This document shows positions 27,578 through 42,607 of a DNA stretch of 42,722 nt, in pieces. Within the stretch, counting starts at the first letter, position 1. Every line of letters starts with the position of its first letter. The position numbers and the translations under genes are program-made. The notes under the pieces were generated by a model. It saw only the letters and a list, made by a program, of their open reading frames with translations, did no database searches and was not told the origin of the DNA. The DNA comes from a virus, in the IMG/VR virus record IMGVR_UViG_3300048905_000037, positions 1 through 42,722 of that record. The stretch is one strand, 5' to 3'.

Positions 27578-28017
27578 GCTGCCTCCGGCGAGCCAAACAG
27601 GGCCGACACAAGCGGGTCGCGACGGTCGATAGCCGGGTAGGTCTTGACGGTCTCTTGGCGCGGAATAGCGCAGGGTGCCGTATCTTCCGGCTCGGTCGTG
27701 AGCGCAGCTGTATCTTGCGGAGCGGCTTCAACCTTGGGTGCCGGGCCGATGTGCCAGGTGTAGAACAGCACAGCCTTGGCGCGGTGCTTCTGGCGATGGA
27801 TGCGCTCTTCAGCTTCTAGGTCGTCGAGGCGGATGCGGATGGGCGGGACCGAGTAGCCAAGCAGGCGCGCGATTTCGTCAACCGTGCGCGGCGCTTTGGC
27901 GATCAGGTCTTCAACAGCTGATTTCAGGCCTATGGCTGGAACGTTGCGTTCGTACTTGATGCGTGGCCGGCGGCGTTCTGCCTGTGCCACGCCTTGTTTG
28001 TCGGTGTAGGTCGTCAT
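27574..28017 (-). CDS. Hypothetical wHTH-like protein
   Basis: APRTVDEIARLLGYSVPPIRIRLDDLEAEERI resembles a winged helix. Confidence 0.5.
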   Translation of the reverse strand: MTTYTDKQGVAQAERRRPRIKYERNVPAIGLKSAVEDLIAKAPRTVDEIARLLGYSVPPIRIRLDDLEAEERIHRQKHRAKAVLFYTWHIGPAPKVEAAPQDTAALTTEPEDTAPCAIPRQETVKTYPAIDRRDPLVSALFGSPEAA

Positions 28018-28214
28018 GGCTGCCCCGCCTTGCGGAAGTGCTCAGCCGTTTCCTGCAGCTGGTTGATGCTCTGGTTGAGGCGGCCGAATTGGCTTTTCTC
28101 TTCCTGCTCATTGCCAGATGCGCGGGCGTCACGGTATACGCGATTGCGCAATACCACGTTGTCTGTCATGGTTAACAGTTTCGAAACATCAGGTTTTCGT
28201 GTTACTGTGTCCAT
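28014..28214 (-). CDS. Hypothetical small protein
   Basis: Strong SD AGGAGG 8 nt upstream of the ATG at 28214. Confidence 0.5.
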   Translation of the reverse strand: MDTVTRKPDVSKLLTMTDNVVLRNRVYRDARASGNEQEEKSQFGRLNQSINQLQETAEHFRKAGQP

Positions 28215-28232
28215 CTCGTAGTTCCTCCTGTG

Positions 28233-28260
28233 GCCCGGCTCGCATCCGGGCTATTTTTTT
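28233..28260 (+). terminator. Rho-independent terminator on the plus strand, antisense to the early-right operon
   Basis: GCCCGG-ctcgcat-CCGGGC followed by TATTTTTTT on the plus strand. On the minus strand the hairpin has no U-tract. Confidence 0.6.
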
Positions 28261-28287
28261 GCCGCCTCGTGGCGCAACCGGAAGCCA

Positions 28288-28545
28288 TTAAAGGTGCCTC
28301 CGCGCGTTGAAGCCCTTGCCGCTACCTGCTCGGCTTGTCATCCGACCGACACCCCGACAACCTCGGGATTCCCTGCTCGGCGGTGGCGCAATACCATTCG
28401 TCCGTACCGCGTTGTTGATGAGGCAGCGGTTAAGCGCGCTTTTCGAAATTCCGAGCAGCTTGCTCAGTGCCGTGAATTCACTCAGCTCTTTCGGGTTGAG
28501 CAGGGTTTCCAGGACTTCGGTGCGGACGTTCGGGTTCAGACTCAT
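28288..28545 (-). CDS. HTH protein in the cII position
   Basis: The HTH is EFTALSKLLGISKSALNRCLINN. It is the second gene of the PR-type operon. The C-terminal third is compositionally odd. Confidence 0.5.
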   Translation of the reverse strand: MSLNPNVRTEVLETLLNPKELSEFTALSKLLGISKSALNRCLINNAVRTNGIAPPPSRESRGCRGVGRMTSRAGSGKGFNARRHL

Positions 28546-28665
28546 GTGTTTCTCCTTTGTGGTGCGGACTGCTTGGGGCAGCCTTTCGGCTGGCGGTACT
28601 GCTGTTGCTCAAGGGCTTCTTCCTGCTTGCAACTTTTTGGCCGGCAGGAAGTGACAGGTTGTGAA

Positions 28666-28896
28666 TTAGGACGTAGGGACGCGGCGTGGCGCCGGCGGGT
28701 CGCCGAAGACAGTCGGGTTGAGTTCGTAGCGGGTAACTTGGCAGTTCAGGGCGGCTTCGACTTCACGGCAGCGTTCAGCCGGGACGTAACCCTGGGATTC
28801 CCACTTCTGGACCGCTTGCGGCGTCAGATCGAGAAGCCTGCCGAGAGCAGACTGGTTGCCAGCGAGACGGATAGCTTTTGCGATACCGGTTTCCAT
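28666..28896 (-). CDS. cro: Cro-like repressor (HTH)
   Basis: IAKAIRLAGNQSALGRLLDLTPQAVQKWESQGYVPAERC is the Cro/YdaS-type HTH. It is divergent from the CI gene. Confidence 0.7.
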   Translation of the reverse strand: METGIAKAIRLAGNQSALGRLLDLTPQAVQKWESQGYVPAERCREVEAALNCQVTRYELNPTVFGDPPAPRRVPTS

Positions 28897-29002
28897 GTTC
28901 GTGCCTAAAGTTGTTCTTACAACCCTAGGTTACAGCATGCCGAGCCGAATTACAACTTATTTTTGCAGTGCTATCTACAACGCTTGCTTGTAAGATGGCT
29001 AA
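28897..29002. promoter_or_regulatory. Immunity switch region: PR-type promoter and operator half-sites
   Basis: The minus strand reads TTGTAA (28950-28955), a 17-nt spacer, then TAACCT (28927-28932), followed by GGGTTGTAAGAACAAC. TTACAAC-type heptamers lie at 28917, 28950, 28975 and 28988 (the last inverted). The palindrome GTTGTtcttACAAC spans 28910-28923. Confidence 0.6.
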
Positions 29003-29701
29003 ATGGAAACTATGGCCTCAAGAATCGAGCGACTGCTCAATGACAAGAACGGCGGCAACCAATCCGAGATGGCGCGTTTCATCGGGGTGAGTCCGCAGGC
29101 CGTGCAGAAGTGGATCGCTGGCGGCTCGGAGCCACGCGGGAAGAATCTCGAGTTGGCGGCCGAATTCTTGGGTGTGACGCCGGCCTTCCTGAAGTTCGGT
29201 CTTCAAGTAGAGCAGGCTGCTGAAATCAGCCAGCTGCTACCTGGAGCGCGCCGAGTGCATGCATCCGACGCTGACGATCCGAGCATGACGCAGATCATGA
29301 AGGTGCGGCTGAAAGTTCAAGCTGGGATTACGGGCTTCCAGGTCGAGCCCGAGCATTACGACGGTGAGACGCAAGGGGTGCCCACCAAGTGGATTGAGCG
29401 AGAGGGGCTGCACAAGTCCTCGCTGCTGTCGATTGTAGTCCGTGGAGACAGTATGGAGCCCGCCTTATATGACGGCGACGTAATAGTGGTGAACACCGCA
29501 GATAAGTCGCTGGTGTCTGGCACGGTCTACGTCATTAACTACGAAGGCGAGGCAGTCGTGAAACGGATGATTCGCGACGCGGGCCAGTGGTGGCTTGCCT
29601 CAGACAACCCAGATCAGCGCAGGTATCACCGCCAGTTGTGCAAGGGCGCCGAATGCATCGTGATCGGCAAGGTAGTGCGCAAAGAAAGTACTCATATCTG
29701 A
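29003..29701 (+). CDS. cI: CI-type repressor, XRE HTH plus S24 (LexA-like) autopeptidase domain
   Basis: The N-terminal HTH is QSEMARFIGVSPQAVQKWIAG. The C-terminal domain has VRGDSMEP (Ser) and VVKRM (Lys). Confidence 0.85.
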   Translation: METMASRIERLLNDKNGGNQSEMARFIGVSPQAVQKWIAGGSEPRGKNLELAAEFLGVTPAFLKFGLQVEQAAEISQLLPGARRVHASDADDPSMTQIMKVRLKVQAGITGFQVEPEHYDGETQGVPTKWIEREGLHKSSLLSIVVRGDSMEPALYDGDVIVVNTADKSLVSGTVYVINYEGEAVVKRMIRDAGQWWLASDNPDQRRYHRQLCKGAECIVIGKVVRKESTHI

Positions 29702-29712
29702 TTGGACAGGTA

Positions 29713-29889
29713 ATGATGCATCCTTTACTAAGTCTTGCACTCCTAATCGTAAGCTATTTTTCAGCCTACTTCTCTCGACTTTATTTTCCAACGCTGGCCC
29801 GCATTCCAATGCTAGCCCTTATGGCAGGCGCGTTTTTTATCGAAATCGCTGTTCTTGTTTTTGTTGGTTCGCTGCGGAGCGCCATCTGA
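29713..29889 (+). CDS. Small membrane protein (58 aa, two TM helices)
   Basis: MMHPLLSLALLIVSYFSAYF...MLALMAGAFFIEIAVLVFVG. It starts 12 nt after the cI stop, in a low-GC region. Confidence 0.55.
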   Translation: MMHPLLSLALLIVSYFSAYFSRLYFPTLARIPMLALMAGAFFIEIAVLVFVGSLRSAI

Positions 29890-30095
29890 TGGCATTCAAG
29901 GACGGCATGGCAGCAATTGCAAAGGTGCTCGAAGTCGGGGCAATCATTGTCGCGGCCAGTTGGGTCATTGGCGGAGTCTACTTCGCATTTGTTGGTGAAA
30001 TCGGGCCAAGTCTCGGGTTTGGACTGATGTTTGGGATGATCTGGTTTGTCTGCCTATGGACACCTGCCTGGCTAATTCGAAAGTTTATCCAATGA
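29889..30095 (+). CDS. Small membrane protein (68 aa, two TM helices)
   Basis: The start overlaps the upstream stop (TGATG). It contains VGAIIVAASWVIGGVYFAFV and LGFGLMFGMIWFVCLW. Confidence 0.6.
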   Translation: MAFKDGMAAIAKVLEVGAIIVAASWVIGGVYFAFVGEIGPSLGFGLMFGMIWFVCLWTPAWLIRKFIQ

Positions 30096-30265
30096 TAGTT
30101 ATCATCGGTGCACTGGCCGGGGTAGGGTACGGCGGCTACGTTATTTCCAAGTTCTTTCGCAGGATAGGTGATCTGGAAAGGCGAGTAGCATTCCTTGAGG
30201 ATCGCTCCCCACAGGCACAATATATTCGTGAGTTAGAGGATAAAGAAAAAGGCTGGGTCGAATAG
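30092..30265 (+). CDS. Small membrane-anchored protein (57 aa, one TM helix plus charged tail)
   Basis: ATGA overlap with the upstream gene. MIVIIGALAGVGYGGYVI is followed by RRIGDLERRVAFLEDR... Confidence 0.55.
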   Translation: MIVIIGALAGVGYGGYVISKFFRRIGDLERRVAFLEDRSPQAQYIRELEDKEKGWVE

Positions 30266-30327
30266 GACGATCTGGGCTTGCGATGAAAGGCGCAACGGCA
30301 CGCCACCTTGCCGAACATGGGGAAATA

Positions 30328-30714
30328 ATGAAAAAGATAATTGCTTTAACCCTGATTGGAGCGGCGTTGGGAGGATGCGCCACTGCCAGCAAAGACATCG
30401 CCTCTACATACACGTCCCCGATTGCGTACCAGTCTTACGACTGCCAGCAGCTTGGTGCTGAGACGAGCAGGATACAGGCACGTGTAACACAGGTGGGCGG
30501 CCGGCTCGACCAGGCGGCAAGCAATGACAAGGCTATCGCCACCGCTGGGGCAATCCTCTTCTGGCCCGCGCTCTTTGCCCTTGGCGGCACCAAGGCTCAG
30601 GAGGCAGAATACGCAACCCTGAAGGGGCAGTATGACGCTGTCCAACAGGCAGCAATCGAGAAGAAGTGCGCAGGAGCGGTTGCGCCGGCTCCTCAAGTAG
30701 CGTCCGCGACCTAG
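30328..30714 (+). CDS. Lipoprotein
   Basis: MKKIIALTLIGAALGGCATAS is a signal peptide plus lipobox LGGC. The ATG at 30328 follows GGGGAA. Confidence 0.7.
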   Translation: MKKIIALTLIGAALGGCATASKDIASTYTSPIAYQSYDCQQLGAETSRIQARVTQVGGRLDQAASNDKAIATAGAILFWPALFALGGTKAQEAEYATLKGQYDAVQQAAIEKKCAGAVAPAPQVASAT

Positions 30715-30735
30715 TTCTTCCGACTTAACACCACA

Positions 30736-30758
30736 AGCCCGCCATGCGCGGGCTTTTT
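30736..30758 (+). terminator. Rho-independent terminator closing the cI-cassette transcription unit
   Basis: AGCCCGC-catgc-GCGGGCT followed by TTTT, 22 nt after the lipoprotein stop. Confidence 0.8.
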
Positions 30759-30775
30759 CACGCCTTCCCCCGGCT

Positions 30776-30871
30776 TTACAACTGACGCGATGTAGCGGAT
30801 CAACTTTTTTCGCGTTTAATTACAACTTTCTCTTGCAATGCTGTGCTCGCTGTTGTAACCTGTGGTTGTAG
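30776..30871 (+). promoter_or_regulatory. PL-type promoter and operator half-sites
   Basis: TTGCAA (30833-30838), a 17-nt spacer, then TAACCT (30856-30861), followed by GTGGTTGTAG. TTACAAC lies at 30776 and 30820, GTTGTAA at 30852 and GTTGTAG at 30865. AATTACAACTT.T.T.TTGCA.TGCT is shared with 28948-28972. Confidence 0.55.
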
Positions 30872-30921
30872 TCACTAACGCAGCGAGCTCAGCACCCGCC
30901 GAGCTGCAGATGGAGAGCACG

Positions 30922-31107
30922 ATGGAAGCAGCAAAGCATATTCAAGCAGAGCGCGAACGCGACGACCTTCAGAACCATAACGAGCGCGTTGAGTGGCTGA
31001 GCGCTGATGCGCCGCGTTGGTCGTGCGGAACGATGGTCGATGCCCACTCGCGCAACGTCCTGCTGCTGCAAAGCCGCGCCGCCCTCGCCGCAGCAGGTGC
31101 CGCATGA
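30922..31107 (+). CDS. Hypothetical first gene of the early-left operon
   Basis: The ATG at 30922 is preceded by GGAGAG. The alternative starts at 30910 and 30862 are less likely. Confidence 0.45.
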   Translation: MEAAKHIQAERERDDLQNHNERVEWLSADAPRWSCGTMVDAHSRNVLLLQSRAALAAAGAA

Positions 31108-31358
31108 ACACCCTCAAACTTCAGGACCAGCGCTTCATGGTCAGCCCCTGCGGCTACCTCAGCGGCACCTTTCACGTTTCGCAAATTGCGGACGAGTGCC
31201 CCGGCTGGACGGATGCAACTGAGCTCAGCGACATCGAAGCCAACGACCTGATGGTACGTCGCATGGCCGCCGCCGACCAACGCAAGCGCGAGAGCCGCGA
31301 CGAGGACCGCGCCGAGCGGGCGCAGTGGCACCGCGAATACGACGCGCTGGGGATTTGA
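31104..31358 (+). CDS. Hypothetical protein
   Basis: ATG at 31104 (ATGA overlap). Confidence 0.5.
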   Translation: MNTLKLQDQRFMVSPCGYLSGTFHVSQIADECPGWTDATELSDIEANDLMVRRMAAADQRKRESRDEDRAERAQWHREYDALGI

Positions 31359-31360
31359 GC

Positions 31361-31609
31361 ATGGACAAGCGCTCAATGCAGCTGCTCGAAAAAGCCTTCA
31401 TCGCCGAGATTGAAGAGGGCGCCCACGGCGTTCTCGGCCTGATCCAGACCAAGAGCAAGCTGGCTCAGAAGCTGGAAGCCGAAGGCTATTTGGTCAAGGA
31501 CCAGCACACCTACGGCGGCCGGTTTCCGGTGACGGTCCATGGCTACCGCCTGACGCACCTGGGCCGGCTGACGTACTGCGCAACTTCCGAAGGCGAGGTT
31601 CAGTCATGA
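31361..31609 (+). CDS. Hypothetical protein (wHTH-like)
   Basis: The ATG lies 2 nt after the upstream stop. It contains LAQKLEAEGYLVKD...YRLTHLG. Confidence 0.5.
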   Translation: MDKRSMQLLEKAFIAEIEEGAHGVLGLIQTKSKLAQKLEAEGYLVKDQHTYGGRFPVTVHGYRLTHLGRLTYCATSEGEVQS

Positions 31610-41506: not shown

Positions 41507-42607
41507 ATGGGAAGGCAGCGACTAGCGAAGAACCGGGCCTTGCCGCCCAACCTCTATGTCAACTCGGCCGGGTATTATTACTACCGGCACCCGGAGAACA
41601 AGACGCAGAAGGGGCTCGGTAAGGACCGGGGCAACGCCATCCTGGCGGCAAAGGACACGAACGCGGCGTTGGCCGCACGCTCGCGGTCGCCCCTGGTCGA
41701 TTGGGCGCTCGGCCGGACCGACTACACCTTGGCCGACTGGCTGCCGGTTTATCGCGAGCTGTGGGAGGAAAAGACCAAGCCGGCAGACAGCACCCTTTAC
41801 GCGGCAAAGCAGCTGCTGAAGCGGCTCGGCGAGACCGACTTCGCAAAAATGCGCATGAAACACATCGAGACCCTTCACGTGTCAACGTTCCTGAACGAGT
41901 ACGCGAAAACCTCGGGCGCTGCGATGGCCCGCAATATGCGGTCGAAGCTGAGTGACATATTCCGGTGGGCGGAAACGCAGGGCGTGATCGAGGTCGGCAA
42001 GAACCCTGTTACAGCGACGTTCACGCCCGGCTACAAGGTCAAGCGTGAGCGGCTGAGCCTAGAGCAGTTCTGGGCGATCCATGCACATGCGCCGGCCTGG
42101 ACCAAGAACGCGATGGTGCTTGCCTTGGTCACTGCTCAGCGCCGGGAGGACGTAGCCGAAATGAAGTTCGCCGATTACAAGGACGGCTTTCTGCACGTGG
42201 CTCAGGGCAAGTCTGGCGGGGAGACCAAGCTGCAGCTGGACGGCGCAATCCGGCTGGGCAAGGTTGGCGTATCGATTGGGGAAGCTGTGGCAGCATGCCG
42301 GGACCTGATCGTGAGCCGCCACCTGATCCACTACACCGAGCGAATCGCTAGAGCCAAGCCCGGTGCGAAGGTAGAGGGCCAGGCGATTTCGAAAGCCTTT
42401 CAGCGTGCTCGTGAGGCGGCCAAGATCGAAGCCAAGGAAGACCGTTCTCCGCCTTCATTCCACGAGATCCGCAGCCTGTCGGAGCGCCTCTACCGCGAAG
42501 AGTTCGGAGCCGACTTCGCGCAGGCAATGCTCGGCCATAAGAGCGCGCAGATGACTTCGAAATATGATGACCTGCGCGGAGGCTGGAAGACCATCAAGGC
42601 GAAATGA
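41507..42607 (+). CDS. int: Tyrosine integrase, lambda Int family with an N-terminal arm-binding domain
   Basis: The N-terminus LPPNLYVNSAGYYYYRHPENK and the catalytic motifs AQRREDV, HEIRSL, LGHKS and TSKYD are present. The last 8 nt lie inside the terminal repeat. Confidence 0.9.
   Translation: MGRQRLAKNRALPPNLYVNSAGYYYYRHPENKTQKGLGKDRGNAILAAKDTNAALAARSRSPLVDWALGRTDYTLADWLPVYRELWEEKTKPADSTLYAAKQLLKRLGETDFAKMRMKHIETLHVSTFLNEYAKTSGAAMARNMRSKLSDIFRWAETQGVIEVGKNPVTATFTPGYKVKRERLSLEQFWAIHAHAPAWTKNAMVLALVTAQRREDVAEMKFADYKDGFLHVAQGKSGGETKLQLDGAIRLGKVGVSIGEAVAACRDLIVSRHLIHYTERIARAKPGAKVEGQAISKAFQRAREAAKIEAKEDRSPPSFHEIRSLSERLYREEFGADFAQAMLGHKSAQMTSKYDDLRGGWKTIKAK

What the first reader, a model, noticed from the sequence alone, without database searches (positions are those of the whole stretch)
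29702..30760. Low-GC four-gene membrane/lipoprotein cassette co-transcribed with the CI repressor; candidate exclusion or abortive-infection module
Four genes follow the cI stop, starting 12 nt after it:
- a 58-aa protein with two TM helices
- a 68-aa protein with two TM helices
- a 57-aa protein with one TM helix plus a charged helix
- a 129-aa lipoprotein

The first three overlap by 1-4 nt (TGATG, ATGA). The unit ends in a clean terminator (30736-30758), just before the PL operators. The first ~600 nt (29702-30330) are visibly AT-rich, roughly mid-40s % GC by eye against about 60% elsewhere, which suggests horizontal acquisition.

This is the classic slot for lysogen-expressed exclusion genes, such as lambda rexAB next to cI. 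I recognise none of the four proteins as a known system. The lipoprotein has a hydrophobic internal segment (AGAILFWPALFALGG) and two Cys residues that could form a disulfide.
Basis: partly seen in the sequence, partly recalled or inferred. Interest (0 to 1): 0.7.

Follow-up and report, generated by a model that had tools for sequence, protein, structure and literature searches.

The report
Envelope-protein genes stacked behind phage repressor
Behind the repressor gene of a lambda-like phage sit three tiny membrane-protein genes and a lipoprotein gene, which are separately acquired add-ons made in the dormant phage state and probably alter the cell envelope to keep other phages out, though that role is untested.

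Summary
Four tightly packed + strand genes run from cI to an intrinsic terminator just before the OL/PL operators:
- g1, 29713-29889, 58 aa
- g2, 29889-30095, 68 aa
- g3, 30092-30265, 57 aa
- g4, 30328-30714, a 128-aa lipoprotein (not 129)

The g1-g3 stretch is the lowest-GC part of the contig, at 49.6% against 61.3%, so about 50% rather than mid-40s.

It is not one co-inherited cassette but a stack of at least three units:
- **g4** is a self-contained unit with its own about 45-nt leader and terminator. Its family is large and strongly conserved (more than 1,270 clusters, PHROG 13472, function unknown). In 11 of 15 phage contexts it lies in the repressor operon. It also occurs alone on chromosomes and plasmids.
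- **g3** belongs to a rare family of about nine loci. It sits directly 3' of a cI-type repressor in all 5 other loci where the upstream DNA can be read; in the window g1 and g2 lie between cI and g3.
- **g2** has one known relative, again directly upstream of a g3 homologue.
- **g1** is an orphan.

Nothing matches Pfam, NCBIfam, PADLOC, PDB or BFVD.

The most likely role is envelope remodelling in the lysogen that excludes superinfecting phages. This is inferred from position and predicted localisation only. It is a new member of a known kind, of moderate interest.

The parts
28666..28896 (-). cro-like regulator, divergent from cI
   Evidence: Pfam YdaS_toxin (E 1e-18) and P22_Cro (E 2e-5); PHROG 35.
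28905..29002 (.). OR region: TTACAAC/GTTGT half-sites and divergent promoters. cI has no obvious Shine-Dalgarno sequence.
   Evidence: TTACAAC at 28917 and 28950. A 25-nt module at 28948-28972 is repeated at OL. Sequence read.
29003..29701 (+). cI-type repressor (HTH_3 + S24 autopeptidase), 232 aa
   Evidence: Pfam Peptidase_S24 (E 2e-20) and HTH_3 (E 2e-11); PHROG 4 (E 4e-45).
29713..29889 (+). g1: 58-aa protein with two hydrophobic segments; an orphan
   Evidence: ORF with a GGACAGG Shine-Dalgarno-like sequence. T at the second codon position is 0.51 and the maximum 17-residue Kyte-Doolittle hydropathy is 2.5. Only a self-hit among 5.8 billion proteins. ORF tiling is above chance.
29889..30095 (+). 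g2: 68-aa two-TM hairpin protein with conserved ends (MxFKDGM..., ...LWTPAWxIxKFIQ)
   Evidence: Overlaps the g1 stop by 1 nt, with GGAG 9 nt upstream. It has one homologue, L011 43-225, at 46% identity over 68 aligned positions by BLAST and 52% over the aligned residues by MAFFT, lying directly upstream of a g3 homologue. pN is 0.32 against pS 0.86.
30092..30265 (+). g3: 57-aa protein with an N-terminal TM, a K/R cluster and a charged helix carrying the motif FLEDRSPQAxYxRELEDxEKGW. Predicted topology is N-out, C-in.
   Evidence: ATGA overlap with g2. An exhaustive phmmer search found 6 further clusters at 51-66% identity. Alignment A3. The contexts are cI-linked. pN is 0.19-0.36 with pS saturated.
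30283..30327 (+). Leader of the g4 unit, about 45 nt, homologous to the leader in L004 and including the GGGGA Shine-Dalgarno sequence
   Evidence: DNA alignment A2: homology with L004 starts right after the stop codon of the upstream gene in L004.
30328..30714 (+). g4: 128-aa lipoprotein with signal peptide and lipobox LGGC17. The mature part is helical, with a conserved hydrophobic tip (AILFWPALFALGG, residues 74-87) and invariant C39 and C114.
   Evidence: PHROG 13472, E 1.7e-7, full length. 1,273 homologous clusters. Alignment A1. AlphaFold2 model with pLDDT 68 and helices 39-74 and 87-111.
30735..30758 (+). Intrinsic terminator that ends the cI-g4 transcription unit; it is part of the g4 unit
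   Evidence: Fold of 30712-30775 gives dG -17.8 kcal/mol and z -2.7. The hairpin is conserved in L004.
30776..30870 (.). OL operators and PL promoter for the + strand early-left operon
   Evidence: TTACAAC at 30776, 30820 and 30852(-). Repeat D2 and inverted repeat I3 link this region to OR.

Best explanation
The segment is a mosaic stack of independently mobile accessory units ('morons'). They are inserted in the hypervariable slot between the repressor gene and OL/PL of a lambda-like temperate phage, whose host is probably in the Burkholderiales.

**The units**
- g1: an orphan two-TM peptide.
- g2-g3: a translationally coupled pair of small inner-membrane proteins. g3 is the conserved core and is always linked to a cI-type repressor gene.
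- g4: a self-contained lipoprotein gene with its own leader and terminator.

**Expression (inferred).** In a lysogen, transcription from the repressor maintenance promoter reads through cI, g1, g2, g3 and g4 and stops at the terminator at 30735-30758. All four envelope proteins would therefore be made with the repressor.

**Localisation (inferred).**
- g4 is processed by the lipoprotein pathway. [quoted passage not shown]
- g2 and g3 sit in the inner membrane, with the g3 helix in the cytoplasm.

**Function (inferred, not shown).** The most likely role is superinfection exclusion at the envelope. g4 would interfere with adsorption or periplasmic transit. g2-g3 would interfere with DNA entry through the inner membrane. 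They would act as separate functions rather than as one four-part machine.

The confidence given (0.45) is for the whole statement including the exclusion function. The anatomy alone (a mosaic stack of envelope-protein genes in the repressor operon) I hold at about 0.8.
For: **Layout and signals**
- Gene map, overlaps, terminator and operators.
- Lambda-like gene order.
- No terminator-like site between cI and g1, and no above-chance internal promoter.

**The genes are real**
- ORF tiling p is about 0.003.
- pN is far below a saturated pS for g2, g3 and g4.

**Mosaicism**
- The window and L004 share only g4 with its 45-nt leader and terminator.
- g4 homologues lack g1-g3 everywhere else.
- g3 homologues occur with other neighbours.
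- The nearest cultured repressor relative, Variovorax phage VarioGold, has no gene annotated in the 146 nt after cI before what look like its early-left genes.
- GC3 is far below the phage norm.

**Slot specificity**
- g3 homologues lie directly after cI in all 5 other readable loci (L010, L012, L013, L015, L027), across two cI lineages; in the window g1 and g2 separate g3 from cI.
- g4 homologues lie in the repressor operon in 11 of 15 phage contexts: window, L004, L016, L018, L021-L026 and L037.

**Envelope targeting**
- The lipobox G16-C17 is invariant.
- Hydropathy supports the membrane segments.
- Basic residues follow the g3 TM in most homologues (K/R within four residues after it in 5 of the 7 aligned sequences).

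**Precedent**
- The repressor-to-N region is a known hotspot for accessory genes such as rexAB and bstA (PMC7067206).
- Small inner-membrane or lipoprotein morons act as exclusion proteins: HK97 gp15 and Cor (PMC3594210), P22 SieA (PMC10883804), and T5 Llp, which I know only from the abstracts listed.
Against: - No homology to any characterised exclusion or defence protein.
- Foldseek finds nothing significant in PDB or BFVD.
- The structural models have low to moderate confidence (pLDDT 66-68).
- g4 is 60-84% identical across phages of very different GC content. It also occurs as a stand-alone gene on chromosomes and plasmids. This fits a conserved cellular function at least as well as an anti-phage one.
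- g1 has no relative at all.
- Co-transcription with cI is inferred from the absence of detected signals, not measured.
Confidence: 0.45

Rival explanations
1. Rex-like abortive infection. The small membrane proteins g1-g3 would form or gate a membrane-depolarising pore that is triggered by a superinfecting phage and kills or arrests the cell.
For: - Same slot as lambda rexAB and BTP1 bstA (PMC7067206).
- g1 and g2 are two-TM peptides of holin-like size.
- g3 has a cytoplasmic helix that could act as a sensor or gate.
Against: - No soluble sensor component like RexA.
- No match to RexA, RexB, SieB, holin or PADLOC models.
- g3 usually occurs without g1 or g2.
Confidence: 0.15
2. Lysogenic conversion unrelated to phage. 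g4, and perhaps the small proteins, would improve host envelope fitness, for example stress tolerance or protection from bacteriocins or type VI effectors, by acting on a conserved host envelope component.
For: - g4 is very strongly conserved, with 28 invariant positions in 39 sequences.
- It has stand-alone homologues in Noviherbaspirillum and other assembled genomes (one cluster member is from Ramlibacter), and distant ones on Paracoccus, Amphritea and Skermanella plasmids.
- One copy lies beside a PAAR/T6SS island.
- It is paired with a second lipoprotein both on a chromosome and on a viral contig.
Against: - The strong bias of phage-borne copies to the repressor operon is what exclusion genes typically show, although Bor- or Lom-type conversion genes are also expressed in lysogens.
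- No link to any known stress or immunity family.
Confidence: 0.2
3. Phage-internal regulation. g3, translationally linked to cI, would modulate the phage's own lysis-lysogeny switch, induction or lysis timing rather than protecting the host.
For: - g3 homologues start 0-44 nt after the cI stop in all 5 other readable loci, across two repressor lineages.
- Long forms carry an extra helical domain of about 70 aa.
Against: - Most relatives of these repressors lack g3.
- The family is rare.
- It has the low GC of an accessory gene.
Confidence: 0.1
4. g1 alone is not a gene: it is a chance T-rich ORF in a spacer of foreign DNA.
For: - No homologue in 5.8 billion proteins, nor in any fetched locus.
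- T-rich DNA automatically encodes hydrophobic peptides.
Against: - It has a Shine-Dalgarno-like sequence, and an ATG 12 nt after the last base of the cI stop codon.
- There is an exact TGATG junction with g2.
- ORF tiling is above chance.
- The same gene was called by JGI.
Confidence: 0.15

Closest known systems
Lambda rexA-rexB (and BTP1 bstA): accessory defence genes in the cI-to-N slot
   Same: - Same position and strand relative to cI and OL/PL.
- Presumably expressed from the repressor promoter in lysogens.
- Membrane component(s).
- The slot is known to be mosaic (PMC7067206).
   Different: - No sequence relation.
- No RexA-like cytoplasmic sensor.
- The proteins are much smaller.
- Includes a lipoprotein.
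- Abortive infection is not shown.
Cor (phi80, N15, HK022) and T5 Llp: outer-membrane lipoproteins that block the FhuA receptor
   Same: A small phage-encoded lipoprotein made to protect an already infected or lysogenic cell (PMC3594210, and for Llp the abstracts listed). g4 has a lipobox and a default outer-membrane sorting residue.
   Different: - No homology: the Cor family PHROG 1119 is not among the hits for g4.
- g4 is all-helical with a hydrophobic hairpin tip.
- Its target is unknown.
- It also occurs as a cellular gene.
HK97 gp15 (YebO family) and P22 SieA: inner-membrane proteins that block DNA entry
   Same: - gp15 is a small moron-encoded inner-membrane protein; from my own knowledge it has an N-terminal TM.
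- Cellular homologues exist outside prophages, as for g4.
- Exclusion works without touching the receptor (PMC3594210, PMC10883804).
   Different: - No sequence relation to g1-g3.
- gp15 sits in the tail operon and sieA elsewhere, whereas g3 is tied to cI.
- No functional data exist for g3.
Ltp of Streptococcus thermophilus phage TP-J34
   Same: A lipoprotein described as involved in superinfection exclusion (PMC3952083). That its gene lies in the lysogeny module and that it blocks DNA injection is from my own knowledge, not from a paper read here.
   Different: Gram-positive host, a different fold and no homology.
PHROG 13472 (function unknown)
   Same: g4 matches the profile end to end (residues 1-114 against 1-112 of 113, E 1.7e-7).
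   Different: The PHROG carries no annotation. tblastn of g4 against 50,697 GenBank phage records finds nothing.

Membership tests
Moron (independently acquired accessory unit, as defined in PMC3594210) | [quoted passage not shown] | tested here: met
   GC3 is 0.42-0.64 against 0.81 in reference genes. The stretch is the lowest-GC part of the contig.
Moron (independently acquired accessory unit, as defined in PMC3594210) | Present in some related phages and absent from others, with sharp homology boundaries | tested here: met
   g4 with its leader and terminator is shared with L004, while the flanks differ. VarioGold has no cassette.
Moron (independently acquired accessory unit, as defined in PMC3594210) | Own promoter and terminator | tested here: inconclusive
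   The terminator is confirmed. No above-chance sigma-70 promoter was found inside the segment. Expression is probably by read-through from the cI promoter.
Bacterial lipoprotein (signal peptidase II substrate), g4 | Basic N-region, hydrophobic core, and lipobox [LVI][ASTG][GAS]C | tested here: met
   MKKIIALTLIGAALGG-C17. G16 and C17 are invariant in 39 homologues.
PHROG 13472 | Significant full-length match to the profile | tested here: met
   E 1.7e-7, residues 1-114 against profile positions 1-112 of 113.
Lambda RexAB | Homology to RexA and RexB; a 4-TM RexB plus a soluble RexA | tested here: not met
   A Pfam scan at E <= 1 returned no Rex family for g1-g4; I did not check that this Pfam copy holds RexA and RexB models. 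No soluble partner is encoded between 29702 and 30760.
Lambda RexAB | Located between cI and OL/PL on the cI strand | tested here: met
Cor / Llp / Bor / TraT phage lipoproteins | Sequence or fold relation to one of these families | tested here: not met
   No Pfam hit for g4 at E <= 1. PHROG 1119 (Cor) is absent from its hits. Foldseek against PDB and BFVD gives nothing with E <= 0.001.
Known anti-phage defence systems (PADLOC-DB 2.0) | Match to any component model | tested here: not met
   0 families for all four proteins at E <= 1.
Holins / pinholins (g1, g2) | Match to a holin family and position in a lysis cassette | tested here: not met
   No holin family in Pfam or PHROG hits. The genes lie in the immunity region, not beside an endolysin.
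Superinfection exclusion protein (functional class) | Expression in the lysogen blocks adsorption or DNA entry of incoming phage | not testable with these tools
   This needs expression and phage challenge. Only position and predicted localisation support it.

The most novel reading that the evidence does not exclude
g3 would define a dedicated membrane partner of cI-type repressors. It would be a small N-out/C-in inner-membrane protein, translationally coupled to the repressor, that works together with whatever exported protein follows it.

Short-form g3 is followed by a lipoprotein or secreted protein of four unrelated families in 5 of 5 loci. This could be a modular two-membrane exclusion or sensing device. 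If so, the window's g2-g3 plus g4 would be one instance of a new class of repressor-linked envelope system.
Probability: 0.1. Interest if true: 0.7.

Novelty: new member of a known kind. Interest (0 to 1): 0.4.

Why it matters
Genes carried behind the repressor are what a prophage gives its host while dormant, and most of the known ones come from enterobacterial phages.

This analysis delimits two uncharacterised families from phages of environmental Betaproteobacteria:
- **g4**: a very widespread, strongly conserved lipoprotein that prefers the repressor operon. It is an obvious candidate for a new exclusion or conversion function with a conserved host target.
- **g3**: a rare small membrane protein that always follows cI.

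Both are short, easy to clone and easy to test. A positive result for g4 would annotate more than a thousand currently 'hypothetical' genes. If they have no phenotype, this is simply another example of mosaic accessory genes in a known hotspot.

Tried and rejected
**Family and database searches**
- Pfam, PHROGs, NCBIfam and PADLOC on all four proteins gave only PHROG 13472 for g4.
- Megablast, blastn and tblastn against GenBank phages and PLSDB plasmids found no match for the region, for the 25-kb structural half, or for g3. g4 has only distant plasmid homologues, all annotated 'hypothetical'.
- The 5.8-billion-protein search returned only self-hits for g1 and g2. The single g2 relative was found only through the neighbourhood of a g3 homologue.
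- Scans of IMG/VR, the GTDB species genomes and the JGI metagenomes for g1, g2 and g3 added only L015, L027 and L029. L014 (Actinomycetes, 14 aa) and L007-L009 (27 aa) were rejected as chance matches.

**Structure**
- A PDB profile search with the g4 alignment found nothing.
- AlphaFold2 models of g4 and of long-form g3, searched with Foldseek, matched only generic helical hairpins.

**Other checks**
- Rfam on 28000-31500 gave only sub-threshold chance hits.
- A literature search for the conserved motifs found no papers.
- Pfam and PHROG scans of proteins neighbouring the homologues gave nothing informative.

**Hypotheses rejected**
- Spanin pair (g3 as i-spanin, g4 as o-spanin): the g3 charge distribution puts its helix in the cytoplasm, the genes are not in a lysis cassette, and spanin PHROG hits of related proteins have E > 0.02.
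- Sigma-54 promoter in the g4 leader: the GG-to-GC spacing is 11 nt, not 10.
- g1 and g2 as paralogues, or the small TM proteins of L024, L026 and L037 as g3 relatives: no alignment.
Full report
**What is there**

The window is a complete 42,722-bp metagenome contig. JGI's own record of the g4 product names a contig of this length. Its organisation is lambda-like.
- On the - strand: a cro-like gene (28666-28896), then a DUF1376 replication protein, a DnaB helicase and NinG.
- On the + strand: a cI-type repressor (29003-29701, HTH_3 + Peptidase_S24), a long run of early-left genes, and a lambda-type integrase at 41507-42607.

| Gene | Coordinates | Length | Junction |
|---|---|---|---|
| g1 | 29713-29889 | 58 aa | ATG starts 12 nt after the last base of the cI stop |
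| g2 | 29889-30095 | 68 aa | TGATG overlap with g1 |
| g3 | 30092-30265 | 57 aa | ATGA overlap with g2 |
| g4 | 30328-30714 | 128 aa (not 129) | 62-nt gap after g3 |

- The unit ends in a hairpin plus U run at 30735-30758. For the 64-nt stretch folded, dG is -17.8 kcal/mol and z is -2.7.
- The heptamer TTACAAC occurs seven times in the contig. Five of these are in two clusters, 28917-28956 and 30776-30858, which I read as OR and OL. A 25-nt operator-promoter module is shared by the two clusters.
- The consensus scan found no terminator-like site between cI and g1. It found one promoter-like site in 3 kb, which is the chance expectation.

**Composition and coding**

- Positions 29702-30330 are 49.6% GC against 61.3% for the contig. 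This is the lowest-GC stretch of that length anywhere in the contig.
- GC3 falls from 0.81 in reference genes to 0.42, 0.55 and 0.50 in g1-g3, and to 0.64 in g4.
- The tiling of the segment by ATG-ORFs is reached in 17 of 5000 composition-matched simulations.
- Against their homologues, g2, g3 and g4 show saturated synonymous differences (pS 0.74-1.0). Non-synonymous differences are only 0.15-0.36. They are therefore genes under purifying selection.
- g1 has only indirect support: a Shine-Dalgarno-like sequence, the exact junction with g2, and T-rich second codon positions.

**The lipoprotein g4**

*Family.*
- It matches no Pfam, NCBIfam or PADLOC model. It matches PHROG 13472 (unknown function) from end to end.
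- The protein search gives 1,273 clusters, and the best 120 are 62-100% identical (the top hit is the window's own product).
- In an alignment of 39 members the invariant positions include the lipobox G16-C17, the two further cysteines C39 and C114, a GGRL motif, and W79, P80, L82 and F83 of the conserved hydrophobic FWPALFALGGTK stretch.
- AlphaFold2 gives a helical hairpin with moderate confidence (pLDDT 68). Helices span 39-74 and 87-111, with the hydrophobic stretch at the tip.
- Foldseek finds nothing significant in PDB or BFVD. A profile search of PDB sequences also finds nothing.

*Boundaries.* DNA alignment shows that the window and a related prophage, L004, share only the g4 coding region, about 45 nt of leader and the terminator. 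Upstream, L004 has an Arc-like gene instead of g1-g3. So g4 is a unit of its own.

*Phage contexts.* I read 15 phage contexts.
- In 11 the homologue lies on the repressor strand between the repressor and the early-left genes: window, L004, L016, L018, L021, L022, L023, L024, L025, L026 and L037. In L021 and L023 only a divergent cro-like gene was identified and no repressor gene, so these two placements are less certain.
- In L005 it is an opposite-strand insert among tail genes; L006 repeats the same gene arrangement and is not counted separately.
- L017, L019 and L020 are unclear.

*Non-phage contexts.*
- It stands alone on chromosomes: in Noviherbaspirillum beside a PAAR island, and in other assembled bacterial genomes and long metagenome contigs (one cluster member is from Ramlibacter).
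- At 33-38% identity it occurs on Paracoccus, Amphritea and Skermanella plasmids.

**The small membrane proteins**

*g3.*
- An exhaustive phmmer search over 1.84 billion representative proteins found six other clusters at 51-66% identity.
- They share an N-terminal TM, in most members a basic cluster (K/R within four residues after the TM in 5 of the 7 aligned sequences), and the motif RIxxLExRVxFLEDRSPQAxYxRELEDxEKGW. Three clusters carry an extra helical extension of about 70 aa. The contig L027, found in a later scan, encodes a further long form.
- Basic residues after the TM, and none before it, predict an N-out/C-in orientation. This is an inference from the positive-inside rule.
- In the five other loci where the upstream DNA can be read (L010, L012, L013, L015, L027), the gene starts 0-44 nt after the stop of a cI-type S24 repressor. 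In the window, g1 and g2 lie between cI and g3. The repressors fall into two lineages.
- In all loci it is lower in GC than its cI gene wherever that gene is present.
- Scans of the GTDB species genomes, IMG/VR and the JGI metagenomes added only three loci, so the family is rare.

*g1 and g2.*
- Both returned only themselves from 5.8 billion proteins.
- The 1-kb contig L011 encodes a 60-aa protein directly upstream of its g3 homologue. It is 46% identical to g2 over 68 aligned positions by BLAST (52% over the aligned residues by MAFFT) and has the same N- and C-terminal motifs.
- So g2-g3 is a recurring pair, while g1 remains an orphan.

*Downstream neighbours of g3.* Short-form g3 is followed by an exported protein in 5 of 5 cases, but these come from four unrelated families: g4; a 92-94-aa lipoprotein in L010 and L029; a 158-aa lipoprotein in L013; and a Sec-signal protein in L015.

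**Interpretation**

The placement argument is strengthened by the comparative data.
- The repressor-to-N region is a recognised hotspot for accessory genes such as rexAB and bstA (PMC7067206).
- Here two unrelated families both show a preference for that slot.

The segment is nevertheless a mosaic of at least three units, not one cassette. All four products are predicted to be envelope proteins.

The nearest functional precedents are exclusion proteins:
- small inner-membrane proteins such as HK97 gp15 and P22 SieA, which block DNA entry (PMC3594210, PMC10883804);
- outer-membrane lipoproteins such as Cor and Llp, which block a receptor (Cor: PMC3594210; Llp: abstracts listed).

gp15 is a useful parallel because it too has cellular homologues outside prophages (PMC3594210).

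I therefore rank the readings as follows:
1. Envelope-level superinfection exclusion by independent functions (most likely).
2. A host-fitness conversion function, favoured by g4's extreme conservation and its cellular copies.
3. Rex-like abortive infection.
4. A regulatory role for g3.

None of these is tested. Nothing here is homologous to a characterised system.

**Verdict**

This is a real and well-delimited feature: ordinary in kind (accessory genes in the immunity region) but made of uncharacterised families. It is a new member of a known kind, of moderate interest. The main value is that g4, a family of more than a thousand 'hypothetical' lipoproteins, and the cI-linked g3 family are now defined well enough to test directly.

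Noticed in passing
window 30297-30311: The g4 leader contains GGCACG-N5-TTGC, which resembles a sigma-54 -24/-12 element, and L004 has the same motif. The GG-to-GC spacing is 11 nt rather than the canonical 10, so it is probably not a functional sigma-54 promoter.
   Followed up: partly
window 28991-29005: cI has no Shine-Dalgarno sequence. A -10-like TAAGAT ends 6 nt before its ATG (7 nt from the last base of the hexamer to the A of the ATG). The maintenance transcript may therefore be leaderless, as for lambda PRM. No well-spaced -35 element was seen.
   Followed up: no
window 28948-28972 and 30818-30842: A 25-nt module (AATTACAACTT..TTGCA.TGCT, 84% identical) is repeated in the OR and OL regions. 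It links an operator half-site to a -35-like hexamer in both.
   Followed up: partly
L010 2188-2472, L029 267-545, L013 1781-2257, L015 5185-5592: Short-form g3 homologues are each followed by an exported protein. There are two lipoprotein families and one Sec-signal protein, all unrelated to g4 and all without Pfam or PHROG annotation.
   Followed up: partly
L033 7001-8031 and L020 4001-5016: A g4 homologue is followed by a lipoprotein of about 183 aa (MK..L.GCATPAR...) both on a bacterial chromosome and on a viral contig. This suggests a conserved two-lipoprotein pair. On the chromosome an ABC-transporter ATPase operon follows.
   Followed up: partly
L037 6561-6836 and L024 1905-2156: Small proteins with TM segments and a C-terminal stretch that reads as a charged or coiled-coil helix (by eye from the sequence) sit next to g4 homologues inside repressor operons. 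Their architecture resembles g3, but they show no detectable sequence similarity to it.
   Followed up: partly
L012 803-1069: Downstream of a long-form g3 lies an 88-aa protein of PHROG 1090 (E 5e-22, unknown function). Its N-terminus weakly resembles Cas2 (Pfam E 0.05).
   Followed up: no
L022 3573-3926: Another, unrelated lipoprotein gene lies between the repressor and the g4 homologue. This shows that envelope genes also stack in this slot in other phages.
   Followed up: no
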